NCBI GenBank assembly: GCA_964355955.1
Contig: CAYHFQ010000004.1
Location: 1,162-65,161 of the forward strand
Direction: 5' to 3'
Source of the DNA: an uncultured Gammaproteobacteria bacterium
GTDB taxonomy: Bacteria; Patescibacteriota; Patescibacteriia; UBA9934
Length of the DNA stretch: 64,000 bases
The translations under genes were made by a program, and so were the position numbers. Below, piece by piece: positions 8,019 through 32,260 of this stretch. The stretch's first letter is position 1. Each line of letters starts with the position of its first letter. Below the pieces are notes generated by a model, which saw nothing but the letters and a program-made list of their open reading frames with translations, searched no databases and was not told where the DNA came from.

Positions 8019-8049
8019 AGATGCGAAGAGTGTTACTTTGGATAAATCT

Positions 8050-11326: not shown

Positions 11327-11344
11327 TAACCTGTGCATAAAAAG

Positions 11345-11377
11345 TACTCATCGCGTTCCAGGCGATGAGTATTTTTG
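11345..11377 (+). terminator. Rho-independent terminator after rsmA
   Basis: TACTCATCGC-GTTCCAG-GCGATGAGTA followed by TTTTTGG. Confidence 0.7.
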
Positions 11378-11422
11378 GTATACTACTGTTGTACTAGGAG
11401 GATTGCCGTTCGCTTCGCGTCT

Positions 11423-12082
11423 ATGGCCGAGAACATTGAAGTAACTAAAGCAACGCGCCACGTTTTTTCGCGGCAAGAAAAAGTTGGTTACTCCGTAGTG
11501 GTTGCTACGGGGTGTTTGGCTATTGTGCTAGGAGTGTTTTACATGGGGACGCATTTACATGCACCTTTTAGTATTACCTATACCGGCAACCATTATTTAT
11601 CTGCTGACGATCAGCAACAAGCGCAGATTGCGGCACAGAAAAAGTTAGATACGGATAATGATGGCATCAATGACTATGACGAGCTGAACGTCTACGGCAC
11701 CAGTCCGTATTTGAGTGATACTGATGGCGATGGTTTGCTTGATGGATCAGAAATTAATAGTGGCGGGGATCCATTATGTGCGACAGGCAAGACGTGTGGT
11801 AATACTACGAATAAGGTGTCTATGCCGACGCCGGACGTGGGCCCAGAGCCGGTGGTACCGGTCGACGTTGACCCGGTTGCGGCTTTGAAGACGAGCTTAC
11901 TGGAGGCCTCGATTGATGATATTAAGGCAATGTTAATACAGTCTGGTGTTACGCAGGCCCAGTTGGATGCGATGACGGAAGCTGAGATTAAGACGACTTA
12001 TACTGGTGTGATTGATCAATTGGAATCGTCTGGAGAGTTGGCTAAGATTGTGAATGAAACTTCTACTCAAACATCTCCGTAG
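11423..12082 (+). CDS. Membrane-anchored protein with thrombospondin-type-3-like Ca-binding aspartate repeats
   Basis: One N-terminal TM helix, then DTDNDGINDYDELNVYGTSPYLSDTDGDGLLDGSEIN. The track ORF begins at TTG 11375 and the first ATG is 11423. It ends 4 nt before the giant gene. Confidence 0.55.
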   Translation: MAENIEVTKATRHVFSRQEKVGYSVVVATGCLAIVLGVFYMGTHLHAPFSITYTGNHYLSADDQQQAQIAAQKKLDTDNDGINDYDELNVYGTSPYLSDTDGDGLLDGSEINSGGDPLCATGKTCGNTTNKVSMPTPDVGPEPVVPVDVDPVAALKTSLLEASIDDIKAMLIQSGVTQAQLDAMTEAEIKTTYTGVIDQLESSGELAKIVNETSTQTSP

Positions 12083-12085
12083 CGT

Positions 12086-15000
12086 ATGAAAGTTCGCGGT
12101 TTTAAAAGATTGAGCATAGTAGCCTTGTTGGCCCTGTTAGTTTTGCCGACATTGTTTTTGACGGTTAAGCCTGCGTTAGCTATTCCTACCGAATCGCCGG
12201 ATCTGGTGGCTAGTGATAATGCTAACGCTATCAGGTTGCAATCACAAAAAAAGGCTGAGAATTTAGCTAAGAAATCATTGTCTGGAATATTATTTTCGGG
12301 ATTGATTAACTTAATGCAATTTGCTGCAGATAAAGCTGCATATACGATGGCAACAGCTTTGGTGTCTGGTGGTGCAGCGGGTGACCCATTAGTGGAATTT
12401 AGGACGCCTGGTGTTTTGGCGCGTGACTACTTCCAATCGGTCGGTGGCGAGTTGGTTGGTTTGGTCAGCGAGGATTTGCAAACCACTAAGATTGGTGGCG
12501 TGGCCTATTTTGCCAACTTCAACTTATGCGCACCAAGTAGCCCAGCGGTGCTACTTAGTTTGAAATTGGGTATTAAATCCATGTTTGAAGAGCCGTTACC
12601 AAAATGCGAATGGAATGCTATAAAGACTAATTGGGCTGGTTTTATTGCAGATAATGCAAATACATTTGTTGGTGAGGACAGCATATTGAAGAATGACGCT
12701 GTGCTAACGCAATTAGCTAGTGCTTTTGACCCACAAACGAATGAATTTTCGGCTAGTATAAGTTTGTTTAATAAGGTGTTGTATCAGGCAAAGGGTAAGA
12801 GTGATACTGCTTTGATTAATTTGATTGTAAAGGGTCCAACTAAGGATATTTTGGACGTTGTTACGGGTAATGTTAAAACTGCTTCACAGACAATTGATTG
12901 GTATAGAATTTCTCAGAATGATCACATTGAAAATCAGAAGTATGATTTTGGAAAGATGCTGATAAGCAACTCAGCGGCTTTTGAACAGGTTGGTTTGCAT
13001 GCTGCTAGCATGTTCGCTAATACTTTGGTGACTTCTGGTTTGCAGGCACTTTTGAGCGGTCAATTTAAAACTAATGCTAATACAGTGGATCCATTCAATG
13101 CTGGTTTGGTGGCTTTGATGGATAAGGAGACTGAGCAGGCTAGATTAAAATCTCTTTATACTTCGGTACCATTTGAGGTCACGAATTATGATGCATTGTC
13201 TGATTATGCGAATTGTCCAAATAGCGGTAATAGGGGATTGTATAACTGTGTAATGGATACTAGTTTTGCGAGTGCGGTGGCTAGTGCTGCGGCTGATAAC
13301 GCTCTCACAGTGCAGGGGGCAGTTGATCAGGGTTTGGTGAATGGTGATTGGGCACTCATTCCAAGTTCGGATAAGTCGCGCGATCAAGATCCGTATTGCT
13401 ATACCTATGGTTATTGCTACAGTAACTTGGTGAAGTTACGTAAGGCTCGGATCATTCCTGACGGTTGGGAGATGGCGGCGGATTCAATTTATAATAGTGA
13501 GAGTAGTCCGGTGACCTTACAGACGGTGATGGACGGTTTTGATGATTGTAATGCGGCTGGACAGCCTGATGAGAGTCATAACTGGTGTAAGCTGATTGAT
13601 CCGAATTGGATTCTTAAGTATCCAGACACGACTTGTAAGAACTTGGCGTACGGTGAATTGCTAGAGTCCTCAACCGATGCTACTCGTCAACAAAACTGTG
13701 TAGATGCGCCAAGCTGTATTAGTACGGATGCGGATGGTAATTGTACTGGTGGTTATGGCTATTGCGTACGGGAAAGCAATGTATGGCAGTTCCGGGGTGA
13801 TAGCTGTCCGGACTATGCTTCATCCTGTTTATCATTTACCACGAGCGAGGGAGCGAAGGCTAATTACCTAACGAATACTGTTGATTACGGTAGTTGTAAT
13901 GCTGACAACGCTGGTTGTACATGGTACGCCACAGATAAGACCGTTCAGGATGATGGGACCTATGCTTGGCCAACGGTAACGAGCGTGGCAGAGGCAGACA
14001 TTGCTACTGATACTTATAAAACCCGCATTTACTACAATGATAATGTAGAAACTTGTGATGCGAGTGCGGCTGGCTGCAATAAGTTGGTAGAGCGTGGTAG
14101 TGATGTCGGCCTTAACTTAATTCCAAATTCGAGCTTTGAAACCGATGCTGACGTTAACGGCTTGCCAGATAATTGGTTGAGTACTAATGCGACGGCAGTG
14201 ACTTATGATGACAGCGGCGTAGCCTTGAATGGCGACTGGGTTATCGGCTCCAATCTCGGTGGTCTGCTTTATCAAAGTGGTATTGTGTTGCAGCAGGGTA
14301 GTTTTTACACCTTGTCCTATTATGCTCGATTGATGGATAGTTCTGATGGCGAAGAGACTGCTAACATGTTGATTAGTTTGAATGCAGATAATGGTGAAGT
14401 GATTGATTTGCGGGGTACTAGCATGAGTACGAGCTGTAATATTTACGTTGACGGCAGTAGCGTGACACAGCCTGAAGTATTGCAGTTATCCGGGTATACA
14501 ACTACTACCGACTATCAGCGTTATACCTGTACTTTTACTGCTCCAATTTTGACTGACCGATCAGCTACAGTGAGAGCATATGTTGACGTTGGTGACGGCG
14601 TGAATGTGGCTGATGTCTGGATGGATGAAATTCAACTTGAACAGTCAGAAACGGTGACAGCTTGGCATGATGGTTACAGCACGGCGTCGCCAACCTTTGT
14701 GTATGCTAACGTGCCACCAACCTACCTTGGTTGTACGGGGGCGGATACAGATGCTGCTGAATGTGCCGATTACTCGACCGTTTGTCAGGAGCAGGATGTT
14801 GGTTGTACGGAATATACGCCGGCTAATGGTGACCCAGCCGTGTTTGGTGTGGTGAGTAGTTTAGATACTTGTCCAGCCACTTGTGATGGTTATGACAGTT
14901 ATAAGCAGGAGGCCACATTGTACGAACCGGATGGTGACTTCCCAGTTTACTTTATTCCAAGCAGCGCCACCACTTGTAGCGCCGCGGACGCCGGTTGTGA

Positions 15001-18000
15001 CGAGTTTACTAAGCTGAGCGACGAATCGCTTGGTTACTTTACTTATCTCCGTGCTTGTTTGACGCCAGAGCAGGATGCTGGTTCCACTTACTATACTTGG
15101 GAGGGTAGCGACGCCACTGGTTACCAGTTGGTGACTTGGAAGTTGCTGGAATCTGATTTGGGTGATAGCGCTTCGAGTACATATACTGCCAGTTCTAACG
15201 TTGAGACGAATGTTGGCAAGGCCCCTTGTACAATGTGGGAAACTTCGGCGACTGGCATGACTTGCGATGATAACGCTGACGGTGACACTGGTGAACATTT
15301 TGATACAGATACTGAGACCTGTGATCAGCACGATGACATTTTCGCTGACCCAGATTGTCGCGAGTTCTATGACACTGCTGGTGATATTCACTACCGTTTG
15401 TGGAGTAAAACGGTGACGGTGAACGAGGCATGTGCTAGTTACCGTAAGACGGATTTGGTTGGCCTTGGACTTGATTCAAATGGTGACCTTGTAGACGATG
15501 GTGATGCCAATTGTACTAACTCCGGTGGCTTCTTCGATGATACTCTGAACGAGTGTACTTATTACGGTTACTCGGATGAAAGTAATACTTGTGCGGCGGC
15601 AGCTAACGGTTGTCGCGACTACACTGGTGGCCGCAGTGCCAACAGTCGTGTGGCCTTTACGGATACTTTAGAAACTGGGGACTATACGAGCTGGGATTCG
15701 ACGAGTACAGCGAATGTGACTTATAGCAATGAATCCGTAGCGACGGATGGGCACTCGCTGTCTTCACTTGGTCAGACCGTGTGGACGTTTATGGGTGGTG
15801 ACGGCACGGTGTGTGTGGACGAAGCTGGTTGTGATGAAACGGCGGTGGCTCTTGGTGGTACTTGTACCGTGGGGCTCGACGGTGGCTATTGCGGCACTTT
15901 GCAGGATGAACTTTACGCAGGTAAGACTTATACTTTAAGCTTCTGGGCTAAGGGAACTGGGACTTTGACGGCTGGGTTCAATGTCGACGCAGTAACTTCG
16001 GGTATTAACTTGAATACGGCTTCTGGCGCTGGACGTGATGCCACCTTCGGCACGGCTACGTTGTCGGCTAGTGACTGGCAGGAATATAGCTTGGGACCAC
16101 TCAACATGACGGCTGATGATTATGCTGACTTTGGCAACGGTACGGTCTTGGCCTTTATTCCAGATAGTTCCAGCAGCCGCTTCTACTTGGACAACGTGGT
16201 GCTGCGTGAGGGTGAGGATAGTATTGATGTGATTAAGGGTTCTTGGACGACGCCAACTGAATGTGACGCTACGCCAGAAGGTACGGCGTTCCCACAGTAT
16301 TACCTGGGTTGTCAGCAGTACACCTCGCAGACGGGTGAGACTAGCTATGAGAAGTCGTTCTCGTCCTTGTGTTCCGAGAAAAAAGTAGGTTGTTCGGCTT
16401 ACTACAGCACGGCCCAGACGGATAGCGCTTATGGCCAGGTGTATGGTTTGACGTGTTCGACTTTGGATGGCGCGATTGTCGGCGCGGCTACTAACTGTTA
16501 TTACGGCGTGATTGATGAGGATAGTGCGGATACTGTCGACCCAGTTTACGACACGACCAGCGCCTTTATGTGTACGATCGGTGTCGGGTTCTCGAGCTGT
16601 AGCGCCAACATGGACTGGAGTATTCCAGCTGATCAGTTGCTAAGTCACTTGAGTTACGGTCCTTCAGCACATGTGGTGCCGGCCGATGCACCGTTGTACT
16701 TGATTGTGGGTGATACTAATTCCTGTCAGTCGGCTGACGCTGGTTGTGAAGAGGTGGGCTTGCCAACTTTCAGCCCAGACCATACGGCAGTGACGGCTAG
16801 CACGAGCACCTACTTGCTTAACTCGCCAGCGGATTATGACACGACGCTGTGTTCGCAGGATGATTTGTTCTGTCAGGCTTGGGATGCTGGTGATAAAGGT
16901 GAATACTACTTTAAAGATCCGGGTAACCAGAGCTGTGAATACCGCACTGGCGTGACGGTGAATAATACGAGTTATGATGGTTGGTTCCGCACCGGAACAG
17001 ATAACTTCTGCTACGGCAGCGGGACTTGTGTGACTACTGATGGCTCTGTTGGTGCTAGTTGTACCACGGACGCTGAATGTGGCACGGGGGTTAGCTGTAA
17101 CATAACCAGCGGCTCTTACTTAGTTGGCGGTGATCAGTCTGGTATTTGGCATAATGGTGACCCTAGTTACAATAACTGGGTGGGTACTTGTGATGCGGGG
17201 GATAGTACTTGTAGCGAGTTCCAGGATCTATTGCAGATTCCAGACGGTCACTTGTACGGCGAGTCAGACGGTACCTCTTACTTCTTCTTGGATAATAGTA
17301 GTTTAGATGAATCTGGTTTGACCACTAACGAACAATGTAATGGATTGGTGAGCCAGAAGGCTGGTTGTGTCTTGTTTAACAACACGGCTGTGACAGCCCA
17401 GACTTATAATGCATCGGCCAGCTATGTTGCTAGCTTGCATGCGGATACGTTGTTTGGTGACAAGCCAAACGATTTAGAAAACCCGATTTCTTGTACGGAT
17501 GCCGTCACCTCGACGATTACTACGCCAGCGGGGGACAGTGTGGACTTGTGTGCCAGCCGCTGTGCTTACGGTAGTTATGCATTGCATGATGCGAATAACG
17601 GTAGTACGGATGTAAGTGATACTAGTGTAGGTGGTTATTATGCCGGGCGTTCAGCGGCGCAGATGGCTAGTGTTAATGGTTTAGCAGCTCTTGGTTTAAC
17701 AGCAACTGACCTATATACCTTTGGTGCTTCTTGTCTTAGCGATAGTGACTGTCCAGCTATGACCAGCGATTTGGGAGATGAGGTAGATGGAACATGTGGG
17801 ACAACTGTTATAACAATTTCTGAATCTTTCTATTCTACTGAAGTGAGTGAAATAGTGCCACGTCTAGAAGACGATAGTAACCGCGTACTTAAAGTTGACC
17901 GTGACCGTCAGTGTAGTGAATGGTTGAGCTGTGCTGATAGTCAGCAGGTGTGGGATGCCAGGACCGGTACTTACCGCACAATTTGTGGCGACATCGATCT

Positions 18001-21000
18001 CTGTAATGCTTATTCTGGCACTGGCGATGCCTCATTCTGTAGCAGTTGGGTGCAGGACGACGTGGCAACGGCGCTTGATGTGACTCGCTATACCAGTCGT
18101 GATACCAGTTGGTATGGTCACGAGTATTCAGGCTACGCCATTCCTGATTTGTTGCCGGTGCAGATGTTGAGTCAGGTCAACATTACGCCGCCACCGGGTT
18201 ACTGTAATTTGCCGATGTCGGCTGGACCGGCAGTGCGGTCTGAGTACCAGGGCGATACATGTAGTGTGGATGCTGACTGTAGTAATCAGGCAACTGCTTT
18301 CCCGACTATCTATCATGGCTCTTGCTCGCAAGCTACGGCAGCAGATTACCGCTTGGTTTTTGACGCTGGGAGTTGCGACGAGTCTTACGGCGCAAGCTGT
18401 ACAGTAGGTTACTGTAGCGACACTGCAGCGGCCTGTAGCAGTAATGATCAGTGTGGCAGTAACAGCTGTGTGATTGGTACCTGTTACACTGTTGGTAGCA
18501 CGGATTGTGTGACGGATAGCGATTGTAGCAGTGGTGATACTTGTTTGGCGGAAGGCAAATGTGCGACCGATAACGGTCAACTAGATGTGGGTGCTAGCTG
18601 CGATACAGGTGAAACTCTATATGCGGACCTTAACGATAAAACTGGAACGTGTATTAATGCGTCATGTTTGTTGACGGCAGAGGGACAGCCGGTGGATACA
18701 GGATTGACAGAAGCTAAGGATTGCCGAGCATATCCAGAAAGCAGTAGTCCGTTTGACAATGAGGTGGTGAGCATGTGGGTGAATCCGGATATGAGTGAGG
18801 AGCCTAATGGTAATGATAGTAAACAGCCGTTTGCTGATGTAGCATCAAAACTTGATATTGCGCCAGACATGGTGCCGTACTCGTTTATTACTGGTTTTGA
18901 TAATGCTAATGTTTGCGTGGGTGGTGTTGACTGCAGCTGTAGCTATAAAAAGATTACTTATGGTACTGGTAGCACAACCAGTTATGTTTCGGCTGATCCG
19001 GCAGTCTCGATAATAAACCAGTCGCTGGGTATTTGTAGCGGTGGTGGATTCGATGGTGCAGCTTGTGCAAAATCTGATGAGGACACCGGAGTTATTAGTG
19101 AAGCTATGTGTGAGCGTGGCTGCACCAGTACTGATTGTAGTGATGGCATAGCTGTGACAAGTGATGGAAATGATTCAGATGGTCATAGTACGACACTAAA
19201 TAATTCTGGTGATGTAAAAGGTGGCGGTACGTGTAATTATCCAACGCAGGAAGATACTATTCTTGGCCTAGACGGATATTGCTTGGAGCGCGATACGTCT
19301 ATTAATGTTAACGGTAACCGCGATGATGCTCACCGGGCATGTCTCACTTGGTTGCCGGTGGACCAGTTGGCGGGCAGTACAGACCTGTATGGCAAGGACT
19401 TGAGTGCTGGTTACTTTGCTCATGCTTCAGTATGTTCCAATGTCAGTATTTTCATGGACCTCGGACCAACATTAGTGCCAGAGTTGAATGCTACGGTTGG
19501 CACGGAGGGTACTCCTGGTGGTCAGATGGTAGCTTGTGCAGAAAGCAAAATAACTGACAGGACAGAAAGTAGCAGTACAGAATTTGATGGTACTGTTGAT
19601 GATGTATTTTCGGATGACACAATGTCGAATTGTGGTCATAATCTTGTTTGTCCTGCAGGATATTGGGCACTGATTGGTCAACCATCATGGGCTGATGGAG
19701 CGATCTCGATCAATAGTCAAGTAATCGCTAATGCGTGTATGGGCGTAGATTCCGCTGAGTATAATGATTGTCCTTACGTTTGTATTCCATTGGGTGCTGT
19801 TGAGCCAACTAGCGGCATGTCATGTGATTATGGCGGTGCCTATACAAACGAGGTATTGGCGAATACGCCAAATGGAGTTTCGGTATTAGATACTGTCAAC
19901 GATAGGCTGCCAGACAATGTGTACGCTATCGGTAGTCAGCCAAGTGGCAGAGCTGAGACTGATAGTTTGTATGGGTATCAGAACTTTGATTATGTAGCTA
20001 GTTCACTGAAATTGTGTCGTGTTAGGGGCGTAGAGTATACCGATGCCTTTGCCATGTCGGTATTTGCCCTTCCAGAGACAACCGATTATTACCGGAACTT
20101 AGTAGCAGGACAAGCTGTTACGGGTGTTGATATTTATACGTTTGATGAAAATGATCTAAATGTTGAATATTATCCAGCGTGTGCCGAAGTATTAAATGTT
20201 GTTGATTCTGCTACTGACATTGGTTACCCATTCACAGATCGTATTCTCAATGATTCCCAGAATTACATGATTAGTGATGACACTTATTCAAACATGCAGT
20301 ATGAACGAACGACTACTCCAGAGCCATTCGGTGTTATAACAACTGATTTATCAGCTAGAGATAATTCTGATCCACCAATAATTGCTGCATCCTGTGCTGA
20401 TTTAGCGGATGCTTCTGATGTGTATCGGAACTTTGATACTATTGTGCCACCTCTTGGTGATAGTTTGAACTCGTGTGATTCGTTAATCGATTATAGTGAT
20501 AAGGTAGCCGAATCGTATCCTGGTAATGCATTAGCACGAGCTTGGGTTAGTTTTACACTGAGTATACAAAAGGTCACCCATGGTACCTTCAGTGTTAAGA
20601 CATCAATGTGGTCTGTATTGCCTTCTGTGGGTGCTGCAGAAGAGGCATTTACTAGAATCAGTAAAATATTTGCCAAGGCTGACATTGGTACTGACGATAA
20701 CTTGAGTACCTGGGTCGGTGAGTGGTCTTCGGATGGGGGAGACGCGCTTGGTTATCAGACGGCTGCAACAACTTCTGATGATGGTTATGATGTTTATGAC
20801 GTACGCGGCGCTGAGGGTAATCCACCAAAGGTGTGGGCCTTGAGTAATAGTACGTGTGACGGGACGCAGTGTGAGGAGGGAGATGAAGGGGCGCTGACGT
20901 TGAATGATCAGAACAGTGGCGATTTGGAGGGAACGGGCGGGTTCTACCGTGCCTACCTCAAGTTCTATGCCGCGGCGGATAAGAACCAACTGCCGATTAG

Positions 21001-21562
21001 AAGAGTGATTGTTGATTGGGGTGACAATAAGCAGTCGGGTGCGGTTGATGGGGGTAACTTCTACAAGAACCATCGTGGGTATCAGGACGGTACGACGACG
21101 AGTATCTGTGATACGGATCCGAATGAGAGTACCTACGAGTGGGGCATGAATGGTGATAGTTGCGACCCTAACTACTTCAGCTATAACCATAACTACACTT
21201 GTAACGACTCCCTGATCTTGGGCATGGACGCTTGTGTCGACGCTAACACGGACGGCATTAACGACGTGTCGCCGTGTATGGCGGTGACGGACGAAGGCAG
21301 CTTCTGTGTCTTTACGCCGAAGGTACATGTACGTGATAACTGGGGTTGGTGTACGGGTAGCTGTGTTGATGCAAGCACGGACTCTATAATCAATCATGAG
21401 GCTGATGCATCAAATAACGGAGGAGCTGGTTGCTTTGACAGCGTTGGTACAATATCCGCAACTTCAATTCAGAGTGAATGTAATTATGAAAGCTATCCGC
21501 TTAATGCATCGAATAATGATCCTTGGGTGCATTATCAGGGAGCGGTATATGTGAAGCCATAA
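12086..21562 (+). CDS. Giant (3158 aa) secreted cysteine-rich surface protein with CBM4/9-like modules
   Basis: Signal peptide MKVRGFKRLSIVALLALLVLPTLFLTVKPALA. Recurrent C-x(3-5)-AGC-x-[ED]-[FY] motifs (TCDASAAGCNKL, TCSAADAGCDEF, SCQSADAGCEEV, CAAAANGCRDYTG). NLIPNSSFETDADVNGLPDNW is carbohydrate-binding-module-like. It is a single uninterrupted ORF. Confidence 0.85.
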   Translation: MKVRGFKRLSIVALLALLVLPTLFLTVKPALAIPTESPDLVASDNANAIRLQSQKKAENLAKKSLSGILFSGLINLMQFAADKAAYTMATALVSGGAAGDPLVEFRTPGVLARDYFQSVGGELVGLVSEDLQTTKIGGVAYFANFNLCAPSSPAVLLSLKLGIKSMFEEPLPKCEWNAIKTNWAGFIADNANTFVGEDSILKNDAVLTQLASAFDPQTNEFSASISLFNKVLYQAKGKSDTALINLIVKGPTKDILDVVTGNVKTASQTIDWYRISQNDHIENQKYDFGKMLISNSAAFEQVGLHAASMFANTLVTSGLQALLSGQFKTNANTVDPFNAGLVALMDKETEQARLKSLYTSVPFEVTNYDALSDYANCPNSGNRGLYNCVMDTSFASAVASAAADNALTVQGAVDQGLVNGDWALIPSSDKSRDQDPYCYTYGYCYSNLVKLRKARIIPDGWEMAADSIYNSESSPVTLQTVMDGFDDCNAAGQPDESHNWCKLIDPNWILKYPDTTCKNLAYGELLESSTDATRQQNCVDAPSCISTDADGNCTGGYGYCVRESNVWQFRGDSCPDYASSCLSFTTSEGAKANYLTNTVDYGSCNADNAGCTWYATDKTVQDDGTYAWPTVTSVAEADIATDTYKTRIYYNDNVETCDASAAGCNKLVERGSDVGLNLIPNSSFETDADVNGLPDNWLSTNATAVTYDDSGVALNGDWVIGSNLGGLLYQSGIVLQQGSFYTLSYYARLMDSSDGEETANMLISLNADNGEVIDLRGTSMSTSCNIYVDGSSVTQPEVLQLSGYTTTTDYQRYTCTFTAPILTDRSATVRAYVDVGDGVNVADVWMDEIQLEQSETVTAWHDGYSTASPTFVYANVPPTYLGCTGADTDAAECADYSTVCQEQDVGCTEYTPANGDPAVFGVVSSLDTCPATCDGYDSYKQEATLYEPDGDFPVYFIPSSATTCSAADAGCDEFTKLSDESLGYFTYLRACLTPEQDAGSTYYTWEGSDATGYQLVTWKLLESDLGDSASSTYTASSNVETNVGKAPCTMWETSATGMTCDDNADGDTGEHFDTDTETCDQHDDIFADPDCREFYDTAGDIHYRLWSKTVTVNEACASYRKTDLVGLGLDSNGDLVDDGDANCTNSGGFFDDTLNECTYYGYSDESNTCAAAANGCRDYTGGRSANSRVAFTDTLETGDYTSWDSTSTANVTYSNESVATDGHSLSSLGQTVWTFMGGDGTVCVDEAGCDETAVALGGTCTVGLDGGYCGTLQDELYAGKTYTLSFWAKGTGTLTAGFNVDAVTSGINLNTASGAGRDATFGTATLSASDWQEYSLGPLNMTADDYADFGNGTVLAFIPDSSSSRFYLDNVVLREGEDSIDVIKGSWTTPTECDATPEGTAFPQYYLGCQQYTSQTGETSYEKSFSSLCSEKKVGCSAYYSTAQTDSAYGQVYGLTCSTLDGAIVGAATNCYYGVIDEDSADTVDPVYDTTSAFMCTIGVGFSSCSANMDWSIPADQLLSHLSYGPSAHVVPADAPLYLIVGDTNSCQSADAGCEEVGLPTFSPDHTAVTASTSTYLLNSPADYDTTLCSQDDLFCQAWDAGDKGEYYFKDPGNQSCEYRTGVTVNNTSYDGWFRTGTDNFCYGSGTCVTTDGSVGASCTTDAECGTGVSCNITSGSYLVGGDQSGIWHNGDPSYNNWVGTCDAGDSTCSEFQDLLQIPDGHLYGESDGTSYFFLDNSSLDESGLTTNEQCNGLVSQKAGCVLFNNTAVTAQTYNASASYVASLHADTLFGDKPNDLENPISCTDAVTSTITTPAGDSVDLCASRCAYGSYALHDANNGSTDVSDTSVGGYYAGRSAAQMASVNGLAALGLTATDLYTFGASCLSDSDCPAMTSDLGDEVDGTCGTTVITISESFYSTEVSEIVPRLEDDSNRVLKVDRDRQCSEWLSCADSQQVWDARTGTYRTICGDIDLCNAYSGTGDASFCSSWVQDDVATALDVTRYTSRDTSWYGHEYSGYAIPDLLPVQMLSQVNITPPPGYCNLPMSAGPAVRSEYQGDTCSVDADCSNQATAFPTIYHGSCSQATAADYRLVFDAGSCDESYGASCTVGYCSDTAAACSSNDQCGSNSCVIGTCYTVGSTDCVTDSDCSSGDTCLAEGKCATDNGQLDVGASCDTGETLYADLNDKTGTCINASCLLTAEGQPVDTGLTEAKDCRAYPESSSPFDNEVVSMWVNPDMSEEPNGNDSKQPFADVASKLDIAPDMVPYSFITGFDNANVCVGGVDCSCSYKKITYGTGSTTSYVSADPAVSIINQSLGICSGGGFDGAACAKSDEDTGVISEAMCERGCTSTDCSDGIAVTSDGNDSDGHSTTLNNSGDVKGGGTCNYPTQEDTILGLDGYCLERDTSINVNGNRDDAHRACLTWLPVDQLAGSTDLYGKDLSAGYFAHASVCSNVSIFMDLGPTLVPELNATVGTEGTPGGQMVACAESKITDRTESSSTEFDGTVDDVFSDDTMSNCGHNLVCPAGYWALIGQPSWADGAISINSQVIANACMGVDSAEYNDCPYVCIPLGAVEPTSGMSCDYGGAYTNEVLANTPNGVSVLDTVNDRLPDNVYAIGSQPSGRAETDSLYGYQNFDYVASSLKLCRVRGVEYTDAFAMSVFALPETTDYYRNLVAGQAVTGVDIYTFDENDLNVEYYPACAEVLNVVDSATDIGYPFTDRILNDSQNYMISDDTYSNMQYERTTTPEPFGVITTDLSARDNSDPPIIAASCADLADASDVYRNFDTIVPPLGDSLNSCDSLIDYSDKVAESYPGNALARAWVSFTLSIQKVTHGTFSVKTSMWSVLPSVGAAEEAFTRISKIFAKADIGTDDNLSTWVGEWSSDGGDALGYQTAATTSDDGYDVYDVRGAEGNPPKVWALSNSTCDGTQCEEGDEGALTLNDQNSGDLEGTGGFYRAYLKFYAAADKNQLPIRRVIVDWGDNKQSGAVDGGNFYKNHRGYQDGTTTSICDTDPNESTYEWGMNGDSCDPNYFSYNHNYTCNDSLILGMDACVDANTDGINDVSPCMAVTDEGSFCVFTPKVHVRDNWGWCTGSCVDASTDSIINHEADASNNGGAGCFDSVGTISATSIQSECNYESYPLNASNNDPWVHYQGAVYVKP

Positions 21563-21570
21563 AAGAGAAA

Positions 21571-21597
21571 AGAGCGGGCGCTGGCTCGCTCTTTTCG
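21571..21597 (+). terminator. Terminator after giant gene
   Basis: AGAGCG-GGCGCTGGCT-CGCTCT followed by TTTCGTT. Confidence 0.6.
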
Positions 21598-21607
21598 TTG
21601 GAATAGG

Positions 21608-22472: not shown

Positions 22473-22677
22473 GTGATCTCCGGCCAGGTTGTCTGGCTGT
22501 TGGTTGGAAATAACGAGGGAATCTCGTGCGCTAACCGTAGCCCAAAAATGGCTTTTTGTCAATGGTGTGGATAAGATTTTTGGATGGTTGCCAATTAAAA
22601 AATGGCTAATTTGAGAGAAGAATGTTAATTACGAATGTCTTTATTAATTTGTCTAAATAATGAATAAATTTTAAATA

Positions 22678-23967: not shown

Positions 23968-24431
23968 AGTCAAAACTTATCCCCCGACTTTGCCGACAGC
24001 CGCCGACACGAGAAGTGTAGTATAAACTCGCAGAAAAGTGGCAGTACGTAAAACCTGTCGGTGGGCGTCGACAAGAAATGGCCAGGATGGGCCATTTTTT
24101 GTTTGAGGGAGAATTTTAGTCGAGCTATAGTTTAAGCACGACGTCGACAGAAGGAGACAGCCTACTATCACAAACGTTTGGTAAAAGTCGTGAACATCTA
24201 AATTAGGTAGATGCGAGCGGCACGGTAGCAAAGCGTTGTCATGGTCGGAATGTCTCGGGCCTAGAGAAGACAACTGGGGAGTAGTTTTTCCCTAGGCCTC
24301 GTCGCTTCTGTAAATTTGGTTAATCGAAGAGGTAACACCGCCCTAAGGCTGTTCCGTGAAAGTCATGGACACTCCTAAAGCCAAAGGGATGTGTTGACCA
24401 ATTCCGGTTGACCATCTCAGTGGAGAGTATC

Positions 24432-26183
24432 ATGCGTTCCTTGTATTTCCTGTTCGGTGTTTCGATCTCGCTCGCGTTGATGGCGGCCATGAGCGGCTGC
24501 TGTGGCCCGTTCTGTATGGTCGAGCGTGACGTCAGCCAGGTTGGCGGCGAAGATGCGGTGACTGTCGACATGCCTTTTGCCATGGGCTACCAGAGCCGGT
24601 GCGTGCAGGGCGTCGATGGCAGCTACTCACATCACTCCAACTCCACCTACTTCGACGTGGACTTTGACACGCCGAATGGGGAGGACGACATCGTCTATGC
24701 TCCGGTGAGCGGGACGGCCTACGTGCACGAGAGTGACCCAACGCGCAACTTTGGCAACCACATCAACCTCGACATGAACGACGGGACCTACCTGGTGCTT
24801 GGGCACATGGAGGACATCTTCGTCAGTGACGGGAGTGAGGTGGCGGCCGGGCAGATCCTCGGTTTCGAGGGCACGACCGGCTACAGCACTGGCGATCACG
24901 TCCACATGGGGCGACACGACGGTGATGCGACGCAGGACGCGGTGCGCGGGACGTCGATTGAGGGGCTGGAGTTCAGCCTGTATGACGCGACGACGCGGCA
25001 AACGCTGACCGAGTCGACGGGCGACATGACTTGCGACTTGTCGAGCGGCCACGTCTACCAGTCCACCCTGCCAGTCAACCGCTGGCACCCGGACGGTAGC
25101 TTGGTCAAAACGCCGAGCGACGCCCAGGTGTACCTGGTGGAGAGCGGGCAATTGCGCTACATCAGCGATGAAACCGCGTTCTGGAGCCGTAACTACAGCT
25201 TCAGCGACGTGGCGCTCATCGACACCGACGAAGAAGCCTGCTACGGCCTGGGCAGCGACATCAGCGGCAGTAGCGAAGTGCAGGCCGTGTACCAGTCGGG
25301 CGTGGTCTGGCTACTGCTCGAGACGCCGAGTACCAGCAATCGGCAACGGTTGCGGGTCAAGAGCACGGGCTGGCAAGCGGTGTTGAAGAGCTGGGGCGTG
25401 GTGGCCAGTACCTACGACGACCTGGCGACCAAGCCGATGGACGGCAATCTGACCGACTGGCCAGACAGCGGATACGCTTTGTTCCGCGACGGTAGCCTCA
25501 TCTCGGAAGTCTCGAGCAGCGCGGTCTACGTCGTGAGCGACGGGATTGCTATGCCAATCGAGAGCTGGGATACGTACCTGCTCATGGGCTTCGGTTCACG
25601 GGCGGTCAGCGAGGTGGACAATGGCACAGTGGCCAGCGTCATGAGCCGTGTCGGGGACTGCAACACCAACACCTACTGCGTCAGCCATGAGGACGCGACG
25701 ACCTGTGGCGGACCCTCCGGCAGCGAAGGGGCGTACGACAGCGGCGGTGAAGGTGGCGCGCCGGATACGGGGCAACTCGACACGGGCTATGTGCCACAAC
25801 AGACGGACACGGGCAGCGAGGCGGCGAACCAGAGCCTGAGCGTGAGCTGGTCAACGCCCAGCTTGGCCACGGCCAGCCGCATTGCCCTCTCTGGCGAGTA
25901 TTCGTCAGGTGGGGCAGCGCAAGGCTGGCAGAACTACGGAGAGGTGAGCAATGCGAGCAACCTGACGCAGGTGTTCGTGAACGCGGCACCAGGCGACAGT
26001 CTGCGCTTCTCCGTGGAATACACCATCGGCGGCAACACCAGCTGGTCGTGTTTGGCGCCATTCCCGCCGGGCACCGTACAAGGCAGCCCGAGTGCAGTGT
26101 GGAACGGGCAAGCACTCCCCGTGGTGGCGACGGACGACCCGAGCAGCGATGGCTGTGGGCTGACGGTGACCGTGCCGAACTAG
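24432..26183 (+). CDS. Secreted peptidase M23 (LytM-like) family protein with long C-terminal Ser/Gly-rich domain (high-GC gene)
   Basis: Signal/TM segment MRSLYFLFGVSISLALMAAMSGC. M23 motifs FGNHINLD and TGYSTGDHVHMG. GGAGAG Shine-Dalgarno 4 nt upstream of the ATG at 24432. About 60% GC. Confidence 0.75.
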   Translation: MRSLYFLFGVSISLALMAAMSGCCGPFCMVERDVSQVGGEDAVTVDMPFAMGYQSRCVQGVDGSYSHHSNSTYFDVDFDTPNGEDDIVYAPVSGTAYVHESDPTRNFGNHINLDMNDGTYLVLGHMEDIFVSDGSEVAAGQILGFEGTTGYSTGDHVHMGRHDGDATQDAVRGTSIEGLEFSLYDATTRQTLTESTGDMTCDLSSGHVYQSTLPVNRWHPDGSLVKTPSDAQVYLVESGQLRYISDETAFWSRNYSFSDVALIDTDEEACYGLGSDISGSSEVQAVYQSGVVWLLLETPSTSNRQRLRVKSTGWQAVLKSWGVVASTYDDLATKPMDGNLTDWPDSGYALFRDGSLISEVSSSAVYVVSDGIAMPIESWDTYLLMGFGSRAVSEVDNGTVASVMSRVGDCNTNTYCVSHEDATTCGGPSGSEGAYDSGGEGGAPDTGQLDTGYVPQQTDTGSEAANQSLSVSWSTPSLATASRIALSGEYSSGGAAQGWQNYGEVSNASNLTQVFVNAAPGDSLRFSVEYTIGGNTSWSCLAPFPPGTVQGSPSAVWNGQALPVVATDDPSSDGCGLTVTVPN

Positions 26184-26304
26184 AATTCGGCAACAAGTTT
26201 CTTCTCGATGACGTTCGTTTCCGCTCCTGGGACGAACGTCATTTTCTTTGCTGTGCAAAACCTACGGCGCAGAGTTGAGGGGTGTGATATACTTCTTACT
26301 AACT

Positions 26305-29142: not shown

Positions 29143-29213
29143 TATTGCTTATGGAGGGGGGTGACATTCGCGGTATTCCAATAGTTAGCCAGTTTTTAAC
29201 GAATGGGGAGTCC

Positions 29214-31073: not shown

Positions 31074-31114
31074 AAGGTAGAGGGTAGAGAGTAGAACGTA
31101 GATTGTGCTATAAT
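31071..31114 (+). promoter_or_regulatory. Five tandem heptamers TAGA-N-N-G followed by extended -10 (TGCTATAAT)
   Basis: TAGAAGG TAGAGGG TAGAGAG TAGAACG TAGATTG then TGCTATAAT. The ATG at 31121 lies 7 nt after the -10 box, so the message is predicted leaderless. Confidence 0.55.
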
Positions 31115-31120
31115 GAAAGC

Positions 31121-31561
31121 ATGGCTGGTCGCAATCAATTTGTCGTGCCGCAGTTCCTCGACGTCGAGGCGAAAATTATCGGGCCAATTACGGCGCGGCA
31201 GTTTGTTATTTTTTTAGTGGTGCTGTTGTTTGAGTTCTTATTATATCGAATATTTTTAAGTTTAGCTGTCATTCTAATAGTTGGTTTGCCAGTGTTGGGC
31301 CTAGGTATACTTTTTGCTTTTTTTAAGGTTAATGGTCAACCTTTCCATTATATTCTGCTGAACGTAATTCAGACCATGCGGAAACCACGCTTAAGAGTTT
31401 GGGATAAGACGTTGTCTGATGCTGACATTAGGGTCTTTATGTTGCCGCCAGTAGTCGCTCCACCGCCACCGCCAGTAGCCAAGTCACCGATCGAAAGAGG
31501 AAGGTTGTCGGAATTGACGCTCGTGGTTAATACAGGCGGAAGTTACAATCCGGAGGACTAA
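31121..31561 (+). CDS. Small two-TM membrane protein, VirB3/PrgI-like
   Basis: N-terminal VVPQFLDVEAKIIGPITARQFVIFLVVLLFEF followed by a hydrophobic hairpin. Located immediately upstream of the VirB4-family gene, which is the canonical order. Confidence 0.45.
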   Translation: MAGRNQFVVPQFLDVEAKIIGPITARQFVIFLVVLLFEFLLYRIFLSLAVILIVGLPVLGLGILFAFFKVNGQPFHYILLNVIQTMRKPRLRVWDKTLSDADIRVFMLPPVVAPPPPPVAKSPIERGRLSELTLVVNTGGSYNPED

Positions 31562-31570
31562 AATAACTAT

Positions 31571-32257
31571 ATGGCAACCAATAAATTAGCTAAGCCAAAG
31601 GCGGGGCCACCAACACAGAGATATTTGGATATTGCCGAGATTCGTGAAGATGTGGTGGTGATGAAAGACGGAACACTGCGAACGGTGCTGATGACGAGCA
31701 GCCTAAATTTTGCTTTGAAGAGTGAAGACGAACAACAGGCCGTGATTCAGGGGTATATGCAGTTTTTAAATAGTTTGGAGCACCCGATTCAGATCGTTAT
31801 TCAATCGAGAAGGATGAACGTGGATGGGTATTTGGAACGTTTAAAGCAACAAGAAGATACGATTGGCAATGAGTTACTGAAGTCACAAATTCGAGACTAC
31901 ACGTCGTTTATTAGCGAGTTGGTGGAGTTAGGTGAGATCATGCAAAAGAGATTTTTTGTCATTATTCCGTTTGACCCACTGCAAGATAAGAAGCAAAGTT
32001 TTGTGACTAAATTGCAGACTGCCTTGGCACCAGCTTCGGTAGTGAAGTTGAATGAAAAGGTGTTTCGTACTAGGCGGGATAGTCTGATGCAGCGCACGAG
32101 CAATGTGGCTGGCGGCTTGGGCAGTATGGGCTTGCAAAGCGCTATGCTCGATACGCAGGGTCTGATTGAGTTGTATTATTCGGTGTATAATCCAGATATT
32201 GCAGAAACGCAGAAAATGACCGATATCAATAAGTTAAGAATCGAGACAAAATTCTAG
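31571..32257 (+). CDS. VirB4-family protein, N-terminal segment (separated from ATPase segment by a single in-frame TAG)
   Basis: DVVVMKDGTLRTVLMTSSLNFALKSEDEQQAVIQGYMQFLNSLEHPIQIVIQS. It is in the same reading frame as the 32261 ORF, with only TAG at 32255-32257 between them. Confidence 0.5.
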   Translation: MATNKLAKPKAGPPTQRYLDIAEIREDVVVMKDGTLRTVLMTSSLNFALKSEDEQQAVIQGYMQFLNSLEHPIQIVIQSRRMNVDGYLERLKQQEDTIGNELLKSQIRDYTSFISELVELGEIMQKRFFVIIPFDPLQDKKQSFVTKLQTALAPASVVKLNEKVFRTRRDSLMQRTSNVAGGLGSMGLQSAMLDTQGLIELYYSVYNPDIAETQKMTDINKLRIETKF

Positions 32258-32260
32258 TTT

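What the first reader, a model, noticed from the sequence alone, without database searches (positions are those of the whole stretch)
11423..21562. Giant 3158-aa cysteine-rich surface protein preceded by a Ca-binding TSP3-repeat protein
A single uninterrupted 9.5-kb ORF encodes a secreted protein. It is studded with a recurrent C-x(3-5)-AGC-x-[DE]-[FY] disulfide motif and carries at least two CBM4/9-like carbohydrate-binding segments (NLIPNSSFETDADVNGLPDNW and TGDYTSWDSTSTANVTYSN). Four nucleotides upstream lies a small membrane-anchored protein with thrombospondin-type-3 aspartate repeats. Proteins of this scale in reduced genomes are candidate adhesins or host-contact structures, and the repeated Cys module looks like a lineage-specific domain.
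Basis: partly seen in the sequence, partly recalled or inferred. Interest (0 to 1): 0.6.

Follow-up and report, generated by a model that had tools for sequence, protein, structure and literature searches.

The report
Conserved giant cysteine-rich surface protein operon
A two-gene operon of an ultra-small (Candidatus Uhrbacteria / Patescibacteria) bacterium encodes a calcium-binding membrane anchor and a 3158-residue, disulfide-rich secreted protein with two sugar-binding modules; the pair is real, is kept in hundreds of related species, has never been characterised, and most likely forms a cell-surface contact structure.

Summary
The ORF is real. It spans 12086-21562 and encodes 3158 aa with no stops. 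The identical protein occurs on five independent contigs. pN is far below pS along its whole length. A 219-aa membrane-anchored TSP3-repeat protein ends 3 nt upstream.

A relaxed C-x5-G-C motif occurs 7 times, against 0.46 in shuffles. Of the 130 Cys, 120 are at least 90% conserved in 52 homologues, whereas other positions average 35% identity. Both CBM4/9-like modules are supported, and an ancient [CBM + Cys module] duplication is detectable. About 90% of the protein matches no Pfam family and no PDB fold.

The family is large, colinear and restricted to Patescibacteria: 1159 clusters at 50% identity and at least 447 species genomes. The order ksgA–TSP3–giant is almost invariant, even for relatives at 24-25% identity. 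A monoderm-type T4SS-like cluster (M23 hydrolase, VirB6-like, VirB3-like, VirB4) usually lies just downstream, and in some distant genomes it follows after 7-12 nt.

Best reading: a Sec-exported, disulfide- and calcium-stabilised, glycan-binding surface structure, tethered by the TSP3 partner and used for cell contact, possibly as the outer arm of the T4SS-like machine. The function is inferred, not shown. I rate it a new variant of a known kind, of moderate-to-good interest.

The parts
11341..11377 (.). Hairpin flanked by A/T runs directly after ksgA (stop 11326). It is terminator-like and separates ksgA from the TSP3-giant unit.
   Evidence: The scan reports it on the minus strand. On the plus strand the same stem is followed by TTTTTGG.
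11396..11401 (+). AGGAGG Shine-Dalgarno-like hexamer, 21 nt upstream of the TSP3 gene's ATG (unusually long spacing).
   Evidence: Sequence read.
11423..12082 (+). Gene 1: 219-aa single-pass membrane protein. It has a cytoplasmic N-tail, a TM helix, two TSP3 Ca-binding repeats, a conserved DPxC-x-GK-x-C loop, a Pro-rich linker and a C-terminal helical region.
   Evidence: The repeat region also matches lanmodulin/EF-hand loops weakly (E 0.016-0.02).
11480..11557 (+). TM anchor of gene 1 (residues 20-45). The basic N-tail suggests an N-in orientation, placing the TSP3 domain outside.
   Evidence: Hydropathy; orientation is inferred from the positive-inside rule.
11636..11764 (+). Two bacterial TSP3 repeats (DTDNDGINDYDE and DTDGDGLLDGSE), residues 72-114.
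   Evidence: Pfam PF18884, E 7e-9. Conserved in 50 upstream ORFs.
12086..21562 (+). Gene 2: 3158-aa secreted, very acidic protein (436 D+E against 144 K+R) with 130 Cys.
   Evidence: Over 850 full-length-type relatives.
12086..12181 (+). Signal peptide (residues 1-32) with A-x-A cleavage site PALA|IP. The Pro and A-x-A are conserved in the family.
12182..13210 (+). N-terminal, Cys-poor, mainly helical domain (residues 33-375). It is one of the two most variable regions.
   Evidence: AlphaFold model (helices, pLDDT 35-60). dN/dS 0.33.
13211..14101 (+). Most conserved core (residues 376-672). It includes DPYCYTYGYCYSNLVKLRKARIIPxGWE and several Cys hairpins. No known fold or family matches it.
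14102..14701 (+). CBM4/9-like beta-sandwich 1 (residues 673-872).
   Evidence: Pfam tile 26.0 bits. PDB profile hit to CBM16. Foldseek E 6e-7, TM 0.65-0.70.
14702..15670 (+). Cys-hairpin beta modules (residues 873-1195), with C-x5-G-C motifs at residues 900, 964 and 1169.
15671..16240 (+). CBM4/9-like beta-sandwich 2 (residues 1196-1385).
   Evidence: Pfam best stretch 1270-1335. Tile 22.2 bits. PDB profile hit to 1gui CBM4, E 1.6e-3. hhalign to CBM1, 78% probability.
16241..17962 (+). Second set of Cys-hairpin modules and Cys-rich stalk (residues 1386-1959). Its start is homologous to the modules after CBM1: 844-910 aligns with 1366-1439, and 944-974 with 1528-1557.
   Evidence: hhalign probabilities 94% and 90%.
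17963..21559 (+). C-terminal third (residues 1960-3158). It is mostly beta, is predicted to be fairly compact, and includes Cys-knot-like repeats (2097-2194). Its C-terminal beta domain carries the conserved motifs NQLPIRRVIVDWGD and RDNWGWCTG.
   Evidence: AlphaFold model with pLDDT 66 and pTM 0.58. No PDB or viral fold match at E<=1e-3. No Pfam hit.
19454..20491 (+). Most variable segment of the giant protein (residues 2457-2802). It is a candidate specificity-determining region.
   Evidence: Column conservation 0.19-0.36 and 13-47% gaps. pN 0.39 against L002.
21576..21601 (+). Weak terminator-like hairpin plus T-run, 14 nt after the giant gene's stop.
24408..34174 (+). Context, possibly functionally linked: a T4SS-like cluster. 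It comprises an M23 peptidase lipoprotein (24408), a polytopic VirB6-like 964-aa protein (26248), a 642-aa protein, a PrgI/VirB3-like protein (31103), a 228-aa protein and a VirB4-like ATPase (32261).
   Evidence: Linkage to the giant gene in other genomes.
48028..48672 (-). Context: exported DsbA-like thiol-disulfide oxidoreductase, a plausible catalyst of the giant protein's disulfides.
   Evidence: A DsbA-like gene lies within about 2-8 kb upstream of the operon in 5 of 7 distant loci.

Best explanation
Positions 11423-21562 form a two-gene unit conserved across a large part of the Patescibacteria (Candidatus Uhrbacteria, Falkowbacteria and more distant 'Parcubacteria').

Gene 1 encodes a small N-in single-pass membrane protein. 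Its outside part carries two thrombospondin-type-3 calcium-binding repeats, a small disulfide loop and a helical tail.

Gene 2 starts 3 nt later and is probably translationally coupled. It encodes a Sec-exported, extremely acidic protein of 3158 aa. Its roughly 65 possible disulfides are almost all conserved.

Proposed mechanism:
1. The giant protein is exported unfolded and oxidised outside the cell. A DsbA-like enzyme is encoded in the window.
2. It folds into a long, rigid chain of small disulfide-stapled beta modules. Two CBM4/9-type beta-sandwiches interrupt this chain. They arose by an ancient duplication of a [CBM + Cys-module] unit.
3. The chain ends in a compact C-terminal region of about 1200 aa that contains the most variable segment.
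4. The giant protein has no anchor of its own, so it is held at the membrane by the TSP3 partner, with calcium bridging the acidic surfaces.
5. The assembly projects from the cell. It binds glycans on another surface, most plausibly a host cell wall, through the CBM modules and the variable C-terminal region.
6. Because the gene pair is so often followed by the T4SS-like cluster, the structure may be the contact element for that machine.

Shown: the sequence features, their conservation, the synteny and the CBM fold. Inferred: extracellular oxidation, tethering by TSP3, calcium dependence, glycan binding, and the role in adhesion or host contact.
For: - The gene is real and under purifying selection. 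The identical protein is on 5 contigs. There are over 120 colinear homologues. pN 0.22 against pS 0.68 versus L002, dN/dS about 0.15.
- Export: a signal peptide with a conserved A-x-A site and no other TM segment.
- Structural disulfides: 120 of 130 Cys are at least 90% conserved, against 35% identity elsewhere. Cys spacing motifs are enriched. A DsbA-like gene is in the window and near the operon in distant genomes.
- Glycan-binding modules: CBM_4_9 in 15 of 16 members, PDB profile hits, and a fold match at E 6e-7.
- Partner: a TSP3-repeat ORF lies directly upstream in about 50 of 51 full loci. It is also upstream in 7 of 7 loci reached through distant TSP3 homologues, whose giants are only 24-25% identical.
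- Calcium: TSP3 repeats, similarity to lanmodulin/EF-hand loops, and a net charge of about -290.
- Variable region 2457-2802 inside a conserved scaffold.
- T4SS neighbourhood. The literature states that Patescibacterial T4SSs are of the monoderm type, which depend on surface adhesins, and that no adhesin was found for them (PMC12102498).
Against: - No experiment and no expression data are available.
- No adhesin domain is recognised. About 90% of the protein matches nothing.
- The AlphaFold models are only moderate (pLDDT 60 and 66), and the N-domain that should bind the partner is poorly predicted.
- Deep conservation and fixed length are more typical of a structural envelope component than of a host-specific adhesin.
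- Carbohydrate binding by the CBM-like modules is untested. Module 2 alone scores below the Pfam cut-off.
- Conserved adjacency alone is weak evidence of functional coupling here. The unrelated ksgA is the most constant neighbour of all.
- No cell-wall anchor motif was noticed on reading the C-terminus. No pattern search for LPXTG or similar motifs was run. How the protein stays on the cell is therefore unknown.
Confidence: 0.5

Rival explanations
1. Extracellular arm of the T4SS-like machine. On this reading the TSP3 protein and the giant protein are dedicated components of the Patescibacterial monoderm-type type IV secretion apparatus. They would be the functional analogue of the PrgB/PrgC-type surface adhesins, making and holding the cell-cell junction through which DNA or other material passes. 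This is a more specific version of the best explanation.
For: - The window has an M23 hydrolase, a VirB6-like protein, a PrgI/VirB3-like protein and a VirB4-like ATPase on the same strand, starting 2.8 kb downstream.
- The M23 gene lies within 6 kb downstream in 20 of 38 family loci with a full flank.
- In distant lineages (giants 24-25% identical) the VirB6-like gene follows the giant gene after 12 nt (L086) or 7 nt (L090), or after one small gene (L084).
- PMC12102498 reports that no adhesin was detected for the Patescibacterial T4SS.
Against: - In the window and in L029 and L074, convergent or unrelated genes separate the two units. They are therefore separate transcription units there.
- In 18 of 38 loci no T4SS gene lies within 6 kb.
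- ksgA adjacency is even more conserved, which shows that non-functional synteny persists in these genomes.
- There is no sequence or fold similarity to PrgB, PrgC or any T4SS component.
Confidence: 0.3
2. Envelope scaffold. On this reading the giant protein is a constitutive structural component of the cell envelope, such as an S-layer-like or wall-spanning lattice or sheath. It would attach to the cell's own wall glycans through the CBM modules and to the membrane through the TSP3 partner. Its role would be mechanical stability rather than contact with other cells.
For: - Near-invariant cysteines, fixed architecture and length, and one syntenic locus next to housekeeping genes.
- Strong purifying selection.
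- Nucleotide-sugar epimerase/dehydratase genes and a Wzy_C protein lie upstream in the same conserved block.
- An acidic, Ca-binding character is common in S-layer proteins (own knowledge).
Against: - No SLH or other S-layer or wall-binding domain was found.
- On general knowledge, S-layer proteins are usually Cys-poor and much smaller; this was not checked here.
- A clearly variable region (2457-2802) and a variable N-domain fit a specificity function better.
- No abundance data are available.
Confidence: 0.17
3. Secreted polysaccharide- or cell-wall-processing enzyme. On this reading the CBM modules target an unrecognised catalytic domain, hidden in the conserved core or the C-terminal third, to a polymer substrate.
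For: - On general knowledge, CBM4/9-type modules are usually appended to glycoside hydrolases; consistent with this, the PDB hits are CBMs of laminarinase, endoglucanase and xylanases.
- The conserved core has invariant charged residues: K450, R452, K453, R455, E462, D505.
Against: - No hydrolase, lyase or esterase family was found in any of 16 members, or in separately searched tiles.
- No enzyme fold was found among the PDB matches. The best non-CBM hit has E 0.035.
- 130 structural cysteines and a 3-kb scaffold are not needed for an enzyme.
Confidence: 0.05
4. Artefact: a mis-joined assembly or a non-coding long ORF.
For: None found.
Against: - The same 3158-aa protein is on 5 contigs from NCBI, ENA and Logan assemblies, one of them 1.085 Mb.
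- 52 full-length colinear homologues and 1159 representative clusters.
- pN is far below pS in every 300-codon window.
Confidence: 0.01

Closest known systems
Large cysteine-rich extracellular proteins of CPR bacteria (Peregrinibacteria; Anantharaman et al. 2016, PMC4736985)
   Same: They come from the same superphylum. They are large (mean about 1650 aa), carry a signal peptide, are unusually Cys-rich, have no functional annotation, and were proposed to give rigidity or attachment.
   Different: - Those occur as a multi-gene cluster with strain variation and higher Cys content (about 7%).
- This is a single, deeply conserved gene of about 3000 aa with 4.1% Cys, a fixed TSP3 partner and CBM modules.
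Surface adhesins of Gram-positive conjugative T4SSs (PrgB/PrgC of pCF10 type)
   Same: They are Sec-exported large surface proteins encoded beside a monoderm-type T4SS (PrgI/VirB3, VirB4, VirB6-like, wall hydrolase). The role proposed for them is cell-cell contact.
   Different: - No sequence or fold similarity.
- No LPXTG anchor motif was noticed on reading the C-terminus; no pattern search was run.
- Not inside the T4SS operon in this window.
- Far larger and disulfide-rich.
- Conserved chromosomally across a phylum-level group rather than plasmid-borne.
CBM4/CBM9/CBM16/CBM22 carbohydrate-binding modules
   Same: Two segments have the beta-sandwich fold and reach or approach the Pfam threshold. 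They begin with the typical N-L-x-x-N-x-x-F-E strand.
   Different: - Only 13-19% identity to solved CBMs.
- They are embedded in a non-enzymatic giant protein.
- The ligand is unknown, and the ligand-binding loops are the least conserved parts.
TSP3-repeat surface proteins of bacteria (e.g. Myxococcus CglD and MtsD, OmpA-TSP3 proteins)
   Same: They share D-x-D-x-D-G-x-x-D-x-x-E calcium-binding repeats in an envelope protein implicated in adhesion or cohesion.
   Different: - Similarity is confined to the repeats. The CglD model scores 19.6 bits against a cut-off of 400.
- Here the protein is a 200-260-aa single-pass membrane protein with only two repeats.
- It always precedes the giant gene.
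Giant repeat adhesins of Gram-negative bacteria (LapA, SiiE, RTX adhesins)
   Same: Size, acidity, calcium dependence and surface location.
   Different: - Those are T1SS substrates built from dozens of near-identical Ig-like repeats, with C-terminal RTX signals and almost no Cys.
- This protein has a Sec signal, non-repetitive modules and 130 Cys.
- No Big or RTX hits in 15 of 16 members scanned; one member (of 16) has a single Big_9 hit at E 1e-5.

Membership tests
CBM_4_9 (Pfam PF02018) carbohydrate-binding module | Sequence match above the Pfam gathering score | tested here: met
   The whole protein scores 32.7 bits against 25.9. The module-1 tile scores 26.0 bits. The module-2 tile scores only 22.2 bits. 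15 of 16 family members match.
CBM_4_9 (Pfam PF02018) carbohydrate-binding module | Beta-sandwich (jelly-roll) fold | tested here: met
   The AlphaFold model of residues 672-872 has pLDDT 75-90. Foldseek matches it to CBM16/CBM4/CBM22 structures at E 6e-7 to 1e-5, target TM 0.55-0.70. Module 2 was not modelled.
CBM_4_9 (Pfam PF02018) carbohydrate-binding module | Binds a carbohydrate ligand | not testable with these tools
   Needs glycan arrays or binding assays with recombinant modules.
Bacterial TSP3 repeat (Pfam PF18884) | Repeat D-x-D-x-D-G-x-x-D-x-x-E above the gathering score | tested here: met
   35.8 bits against 25, two stretches. The motif is present once or twice in 50 upstream ORFs.
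Bacterial TSP3 repeat (Pfam PF18884) | Binds calcium | not testable with these tools
   Only indirect evidence: weak similarity to lanmodulin/EF-hand loops.
Gram-positive T4SS surface adhesin (PrgB-like) | Encoded within the T4SS operon | tested here: inconclusive
   In the window the gene is separated from the cluster by 2.8 kb that includes minus-strand genes. In L086 and L090 it is adjacent to the VirB6-like gene with a 7-12 nt gap. A T4SS gene lies within 6 kb in 20 of 38 loci.
Gram-positive T4SS surface adhesin (PrgB-like) | LPXTG cell-wall anchor and a recognisable adhesin or Ig domain | tested here: not met
   The adhesin-domain part was tested: Pfam and NCBIfam find only CBM_4_9. For the anchor, the C-terminus was only read by eye: it ends ...YQGAVYVKP with no TM segment, and no sortase motif was noticed. 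No pattern search for LPXTG was run.
S-layer protein | SLH or other wall-anchoring domain; self-assembling abundant lattice | tested here: not met
   No SLH or S-layer family hit. Lattice formation and abundance cannot be tested here.
T1SS/RTX giant adhesin | C-terminal RTX repeats or secretion signal and tandem Ig-like repeats | tested here: not met
   The protein has an N-terminal Sec signal instead. No RTX or Big repeats were found, except a single Big_9 hit (E 1e-5) in 1 of 16 members. Internal similarity is limited to one ancient duplication.
CBM-bearing glycoside hydrolase | A catalytic GH/PL/CE domain | tested here: not met
   None was found by Pfam, NCBIfam, PDB sequence profile or Foldseek on two thirds of the protein. 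Residues 1196-1959 were not modelled.

The most novel reading that the evidence does not exclude
The TSP3 anchor and the giant disulfide-rich protein form the missing extracellular component of the Patescibacterial T4SS-like machine. They would be a conserved, calcium-stiffened arm, tens of nanometres long, that recognises host wall glycans and docks the ultra-small cell so that the VirB4/VirB6 channel can exchange DNA or nutrients. This would make it a new class of T4SS-associated contact structure and a core determinant of the episymbiotic lifestyle in ABY1-class and related Patescibacteria.
Probability: 0.25. Interest if true: 0.8.

Novelty: new variant of a known kind. Interest (0 to 1): 0.55.

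Why it matters
Patescibacteria (CPR) make up a large share of bacterial diversity. Most are thought to live attached to other cells, yet the molecules that make contact are known for only a few cultured Saccharibacteria.

This operon takes up about 1% of a roughly 1.09-Mb genome. It is kept, colinear and cysteine-for-cysteine, in hundreds of species, down to 24% identity. That argues for an important envelope or contact function in a lineage with no cultured member.

The finding gives a defined pair of candidate proteins to test. Possible routes are CBM ligand screens, multimer modelling, metaproteomics and cryo-ET. It also suggests a specific candidate for the adhesin that a recent survey could not find for the Patescibacterial T4SS.

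If instead it is a structural envelope protein, it would be an unusual, giant, disulfide-based wall component.

Tried and rejected
Searches that found nothing:
- Apart from the CBM_4_9 matches in the giant and TSP3-repeat-level matches in the upstream protein, Pfam, NCBIfam and PDB sequence-profile searches found nothing. This covers the whole giant protein, ten separate tiles of it, 16 family members and the conserved core alone.
- I suspected from memory that the C-terminal domain is PKD-like because of its 'VDWGD' motif. Pfam gives no PKD hit. Foldseek gives only a weak PKD match (4xed, E 0.5). I dropped the idea.
- Foldseek of the C-terminal model against PDB and BFVD gave nothing at E<=1e-3.
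- Literature searches for Uhrbacteria or ABY1 giant Cys-rich proteins found no description of this family.
- The cluster look-up returned no names or accessions.

Tools or inputs that were unavailable:
The models therefore rest on 32-33 sequences.

Ideas rejected:
- That the giant gene and the T4SS cluster form one operon in this window. A minus-strand lipoprotein gene and a CYTH-like gene lie between them.
- That the +222-aa ORF at 21906-22574 (called in the Logan record) is a gene. Its sequence looks like the antisense of the minus-strand lipoprotein gene at 21669-22562.

Full report
**The observation.** The window contains one uninterrupted ORF at 12086..21562 on the plus strand, encoding 3158 aa.
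- The product starts with a hydrophobic signal sequence that ends in PALA|IP. It has no other hydrophobic segment.
- It contains 130 Cys (4.1%). It is rich in Ser, Asp, Thr, Ala and Gly, and it is very acidic: 436 D+E against 144 K+R.
- The upstream ORF is best read from ATG 11423 to 12082 (219 aa). It has a basic N-tail, one TM helix (residues 20-45) and two bacterial TSP3 repeats (PF18884, 35.8 bits against a cut-off of 25).
- Its stop codon is 3 nt before the giant gene's ATG.
- A hairpin with flanking A/T runs follows ksgA, and an AGGAGG lies 21 nt before the ATG at 11423. A weak terminator-like hairpin follows the giant gene. These signals fit a two-gene transcription unit, but they are only consensus matches.

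**The cysteine motif.**
- What is recurrent is C-x5-G-C, usually followed by x2 and an aromatic or hydrophobic residue. It occurs at residues 604, 657, 900, 964, 1169, 1429 and 1547: 7 copies against 0.46 in 3000 shuffles.
- Variants without the Gly occur at 574, 1589 and 1702.
- A second motif, C-x2-[DN]-x-[DEQ]-C, occurs 5 times against 0.13 expected.
- C-x6-C and C-x5-C spacings are each about three-fold over expectation.
- These motifs are conserved column by column in the family.

**The gene is real.**
- The identical protein is found on five contigs from independent sources, the longest 1.085 Mb.
- Against a 64%-identical homologue, pN is 0.22 and pS is 0.68. pN is far below pS in every 300-codon window, and dN/dS is about 0.15.
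- The most variable parts are residues 1-306 and 2457-2802.

**The family.**
- A word-indexed search found more than 120 proteins of 2900-3400 aa that are 30-77% identical over the whole length. All are unnamed or 'hypothetical'. They come from Candidatus Uhrbacteria, Falkowbacteria, 'Parcubacteria' or unclassified Patescibacteria.
- An exhaustive HMMER search with residues 33-700 found 1159 representative clusters (50% identity) at E<=1e-3, and 855 at E<=1e-30. The full-length ones are nearly all 2600-3900 aa, with shorter entries that are probably fragments. The match lies near the N-terminus of the hit in almost all listed cases.
- A scan of one genome per species found 447 genomes with a relative. 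This is a lower bound, because two exact peptide patterns were required.
- In 52 full-length sequences, 120 of the 130 Cys are at least 90% conserved, while other positions average 35% identity.
- The best-conserved block is DPYCYTYGYCYSNLVKLRKARIIPxGWE, residues 435-462.

**Anatomy.**
- Pfam recognises only CBM_4_9. It matches the window protein and 15 of 16 members scanned. The separate tiles score 26.0 bits (module 1) and 22.2 bits (module 2).
- A profile of the family against PDB sequences finds only CBM4 (1gui) and CBM16 (2zew).
- An AlphaFold model of residues 33-1195 (32 sequences, mean pLDDT 60) gives four regions. There is a low-confidence helical N-domain (33-375) and a better-defined small domain (382-512, pLDDT 75-89). 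A highly conserved Cys-rich stretch (513-620) is unpredictable. Module 1 (672-872) is a confident beta-sandwich, followed by confident beta modules (950-1180).
- Foldseek matches only the sandwich, to CBM16/4/22 at E 6e-7 and TM up to 0.70.
- Profile-profile self-comparison shows an old duplication of a [CBM + Cys-module] unit. Residues 844-910 align with 1366-1439 (94% probability). Residues 944-974 align with 1528-1557 (90%). Residues 734-770 align with 1275-1303 (78%).
- A model of residues 1960-3158 (pLDDT 66, pTM 0.58) is mostly beta and fairly compact. It has no match at E<=1e-3 in the PDB or in viral models.
- About 90% of the protein therefore belongs to no described family or fold. 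Residues 1196-1959 were not modelled.

**The partner.**
- A 200-260-aa ORF with the TSP3 motif lies directly upstream of the giant gene in about 50 of 51 loci that hold the full gene. The gaps range from small overlaps to about 20 nt in most loci, with a few up to 340 nt.
- Its conserved features are the TM helix, DTDxDGLxDYDELYVYKTSPYLxDSDSDG, a DPNCPxGKxC loop, a Pro-rich linker and a helical tail.
- I also searched from the partner's side. Seven distant homologues (27-36% identical) on long contigs were all preceded by ksgA and followed by a 2568-2883-aa ORF (2648 aa in L089, where the gene had not been called).
- Two of those giants were compared with the window protein. They are colinear at 24-25% identity (BLASTP E 3e-77 and 1e-105).
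- The ksgA–TSP3–giant order is therefore older than the Uhrbacteria.

**Surroundings.**
- Upstream in the window, all on the plus strand, are YidC, an LPG_synthase_TM protein, a Wzy_C protein, GroEL, a release factor, two NAD-dependent sugar epimerase/dehydratases, Sua5 and KsgA. This block is conserved in 35-66 of 80 loci, depending on the gene.
- Downstream there is first a minus-strand lipoprotein gene, a CYTH-like gene and an HD gene.
- A T4SS-like cluster follows: an M23 peptidase lipoprotein (24408), a polytopic VirB6-like 964-aa protein (26248), a 642-aa protein, a PrgI/VirB3-like protein (31103, E 1.6e-10), a 228-aa protein and a VirB4-like ATPase (32261, E 1.8e-29).
- The M23 gene lies within 6 kb downstream of the giant gene in 20 of 38 family loci with a full flank. 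The intervening genes vary, and in L029 and L074 one of them is convergent.
- In the distant loci the VirB6-like gene follows the giant gene after 12 nt (L086), after 7 nt (L090), or after one small gene (L084).
- A published survey shows that the Patescibacterial T4SS is homologous to the monoderm conjugation machinery. It notes that in class ABY1 the T4SS sits with comF, recG and radA, and that no PrgB-like adhesin was detected (PMC12102498). The window has the same arrangement: ComF-like at 35006, RecG at 43023, RadA at 45229.
- That Uhrbacteria belong to GTDB class ABY1 is my own knowledge.
- A DsbA-like oxidoreductase is encoded at 48028-48672, next to a Cys-rich T4SS_pilin-domain protein. 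DsbA-like genes lie about 2-8 kb upstream of the operon in five of the seven distant loci.

**Interpretation.**
- Shown: a Sec-type signal, conserved cysteines with characteristic spacing, CBM-type sandwiches, a Ca-binding-type membrane partner, fixed pairing, and a frequent T4SS neighbourhood.
- Inferred: the protein is oxidised outside the cell into a rigid chain of disulfide-stapled modules. It lacks an obvious anchor of its own, so the TSP3 protein holds it, with calcium bridging acidic surfaces. It binds glycans through the CBM modules and the variable C-terminal segment.
- I consider a cell-contact (adhesin-like) role the most likely, at about 0.5. Within that, coupling to the T4SS-like machine has a probability of about 0.25-0.3.
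- The main rival is a constitutive envelope scaffold, at about 0.17. The extreme conservation and the neighbouring sugar-nucleotide and Wzy_C genes favour it. The variable segment, the Cys content and the lack of any S-layer or wall-anchoring domain argue against it.
- A hidden enzyme is unlikely (about 0.05), and an artefact is excluded.
- One caution applies to all synteny arguments here. ksgA is functionally unrelated, yet it is the most constant neighbour. Gene order in these small genomes can therefore persist without functional coupling.

**Comparison with what is known.**
- Large Cys-rich extracellular proteins have been noted in another CPR group, the Peregrinibacteria. There they form a variable multi-gene cluster and were proposed to give rigidity or attachment (PMC4736985).
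- In cultured Saccharibacteria, predicted surface adhesins and the T4SS are essential (PMC11665869).
- The present family fits that general kind. It differs in being a single, very deeply conserved 2600-3900-aa gene with an obligatory TSP3 partner, two CBM modules and a fixed chromosomal position.
- It is not a member of the PrgB-like adhesins, the S-layer proteins, the RTX adhesins or any glycoside hydrolase family. The defining features that could be tested were not met.
- I found no paper describing this family.

**Verdict.** I rate the feature a new variant of a known kind (giant surface proteins of ultra-small bacteria), with interest 0.55.

Noticed in passing
window 24408-34174 (+): A monoderm-type T4SS-like cluster. 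It comprises an M23 peptidase lipoprotein, a VirB6-like polytopic 964-aa protein with a long C-terminal extension, a 642-aa acidic protein, a PrgI/VirB3-like protein, a 228-aa protein and a VirB4-like ATPase. ComF-like (35006), RecG (43023) and RadA (45229, minus strand) genes follow, as described for class ABY1 in PMC12102498.
   Followed up: partly
window 46522-48021 (-) and 48028-48672 (-): A 499-aa protein has a signal peptide, a T4SS_pilin (VirB2-like) domain (E 3.5e-12), 19 Cys and a Cys-rich C-terminal extension. It lies directly downstream of a DsbA-like thioredoxin gene. In distant genomes, T4SS_pilin domains fused to SLT or M15 hydrolase domains sit beside DsbA, within about 10 kb upstream of the giant operon (L085).
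   Followed up: partly
window 21669-22562 (-) versus 21906-22574 (+): The Logan gene call places a 222-aa gene on the plus strand here. Its translation looks like antisense noise. The minus-strand ORF encodes a plausible lipoprotein (signal peptide ending LVGC, from the internal Met) with homologues in only two related loci.
   Followed up: partly
window 1-64000: GC skew is strongly positive in every 2-kb window (0.10-0.38), and most genes are on the plus strand. YidC lies at 284-1045. Both features would fit a position on the leading strand close to the replication origin, where Patescibacterial T4SS loci are reported to lie.
   Followed up: no
window 41444-42436 (+): A second, 330-aa ORF with a weak TSP3_bac hit (E 0.005) and no other annotation.
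   Followed up: no
window 24001-26000: Local GC rises to 0.60, against about 0.49 elsewhere. The rise coincides with the M23 peptidase gene, whose C-terminal half is Gly/Ser/Ala-rich.
   Followed up: no
giant protein residues 569-572 (window about 13790-13801): An R-G-D tripeptide (FRGDSCP) sits in the most conserved Cys-rich stretch and is kept in the family consensus (WxFRGDxCP). This is probably coincidental, but it is conserved.
   Followed up: no
L089 10652-18596: A 2648-aa ORF homologous in position to the giant gene is absent from the deposited gene calls of this NCBI assembly. Only a 66-aa fragment is called there. The family is therefore under-counted in protein databases.
   Followed up: partly
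window 3002-4315, 7990-9902: A Wzy_C (O-antigen ligase or O-oligosaccharyltransferase-type) membrane protein and two NAD-dependent sugar epimerase/dehydratases lie in the conserved block upstream of the operon. The giant protein is 19% Ser+Thr and has 31 N-x-S/T sequons, so it could be glycosylated.
   Followed up: no
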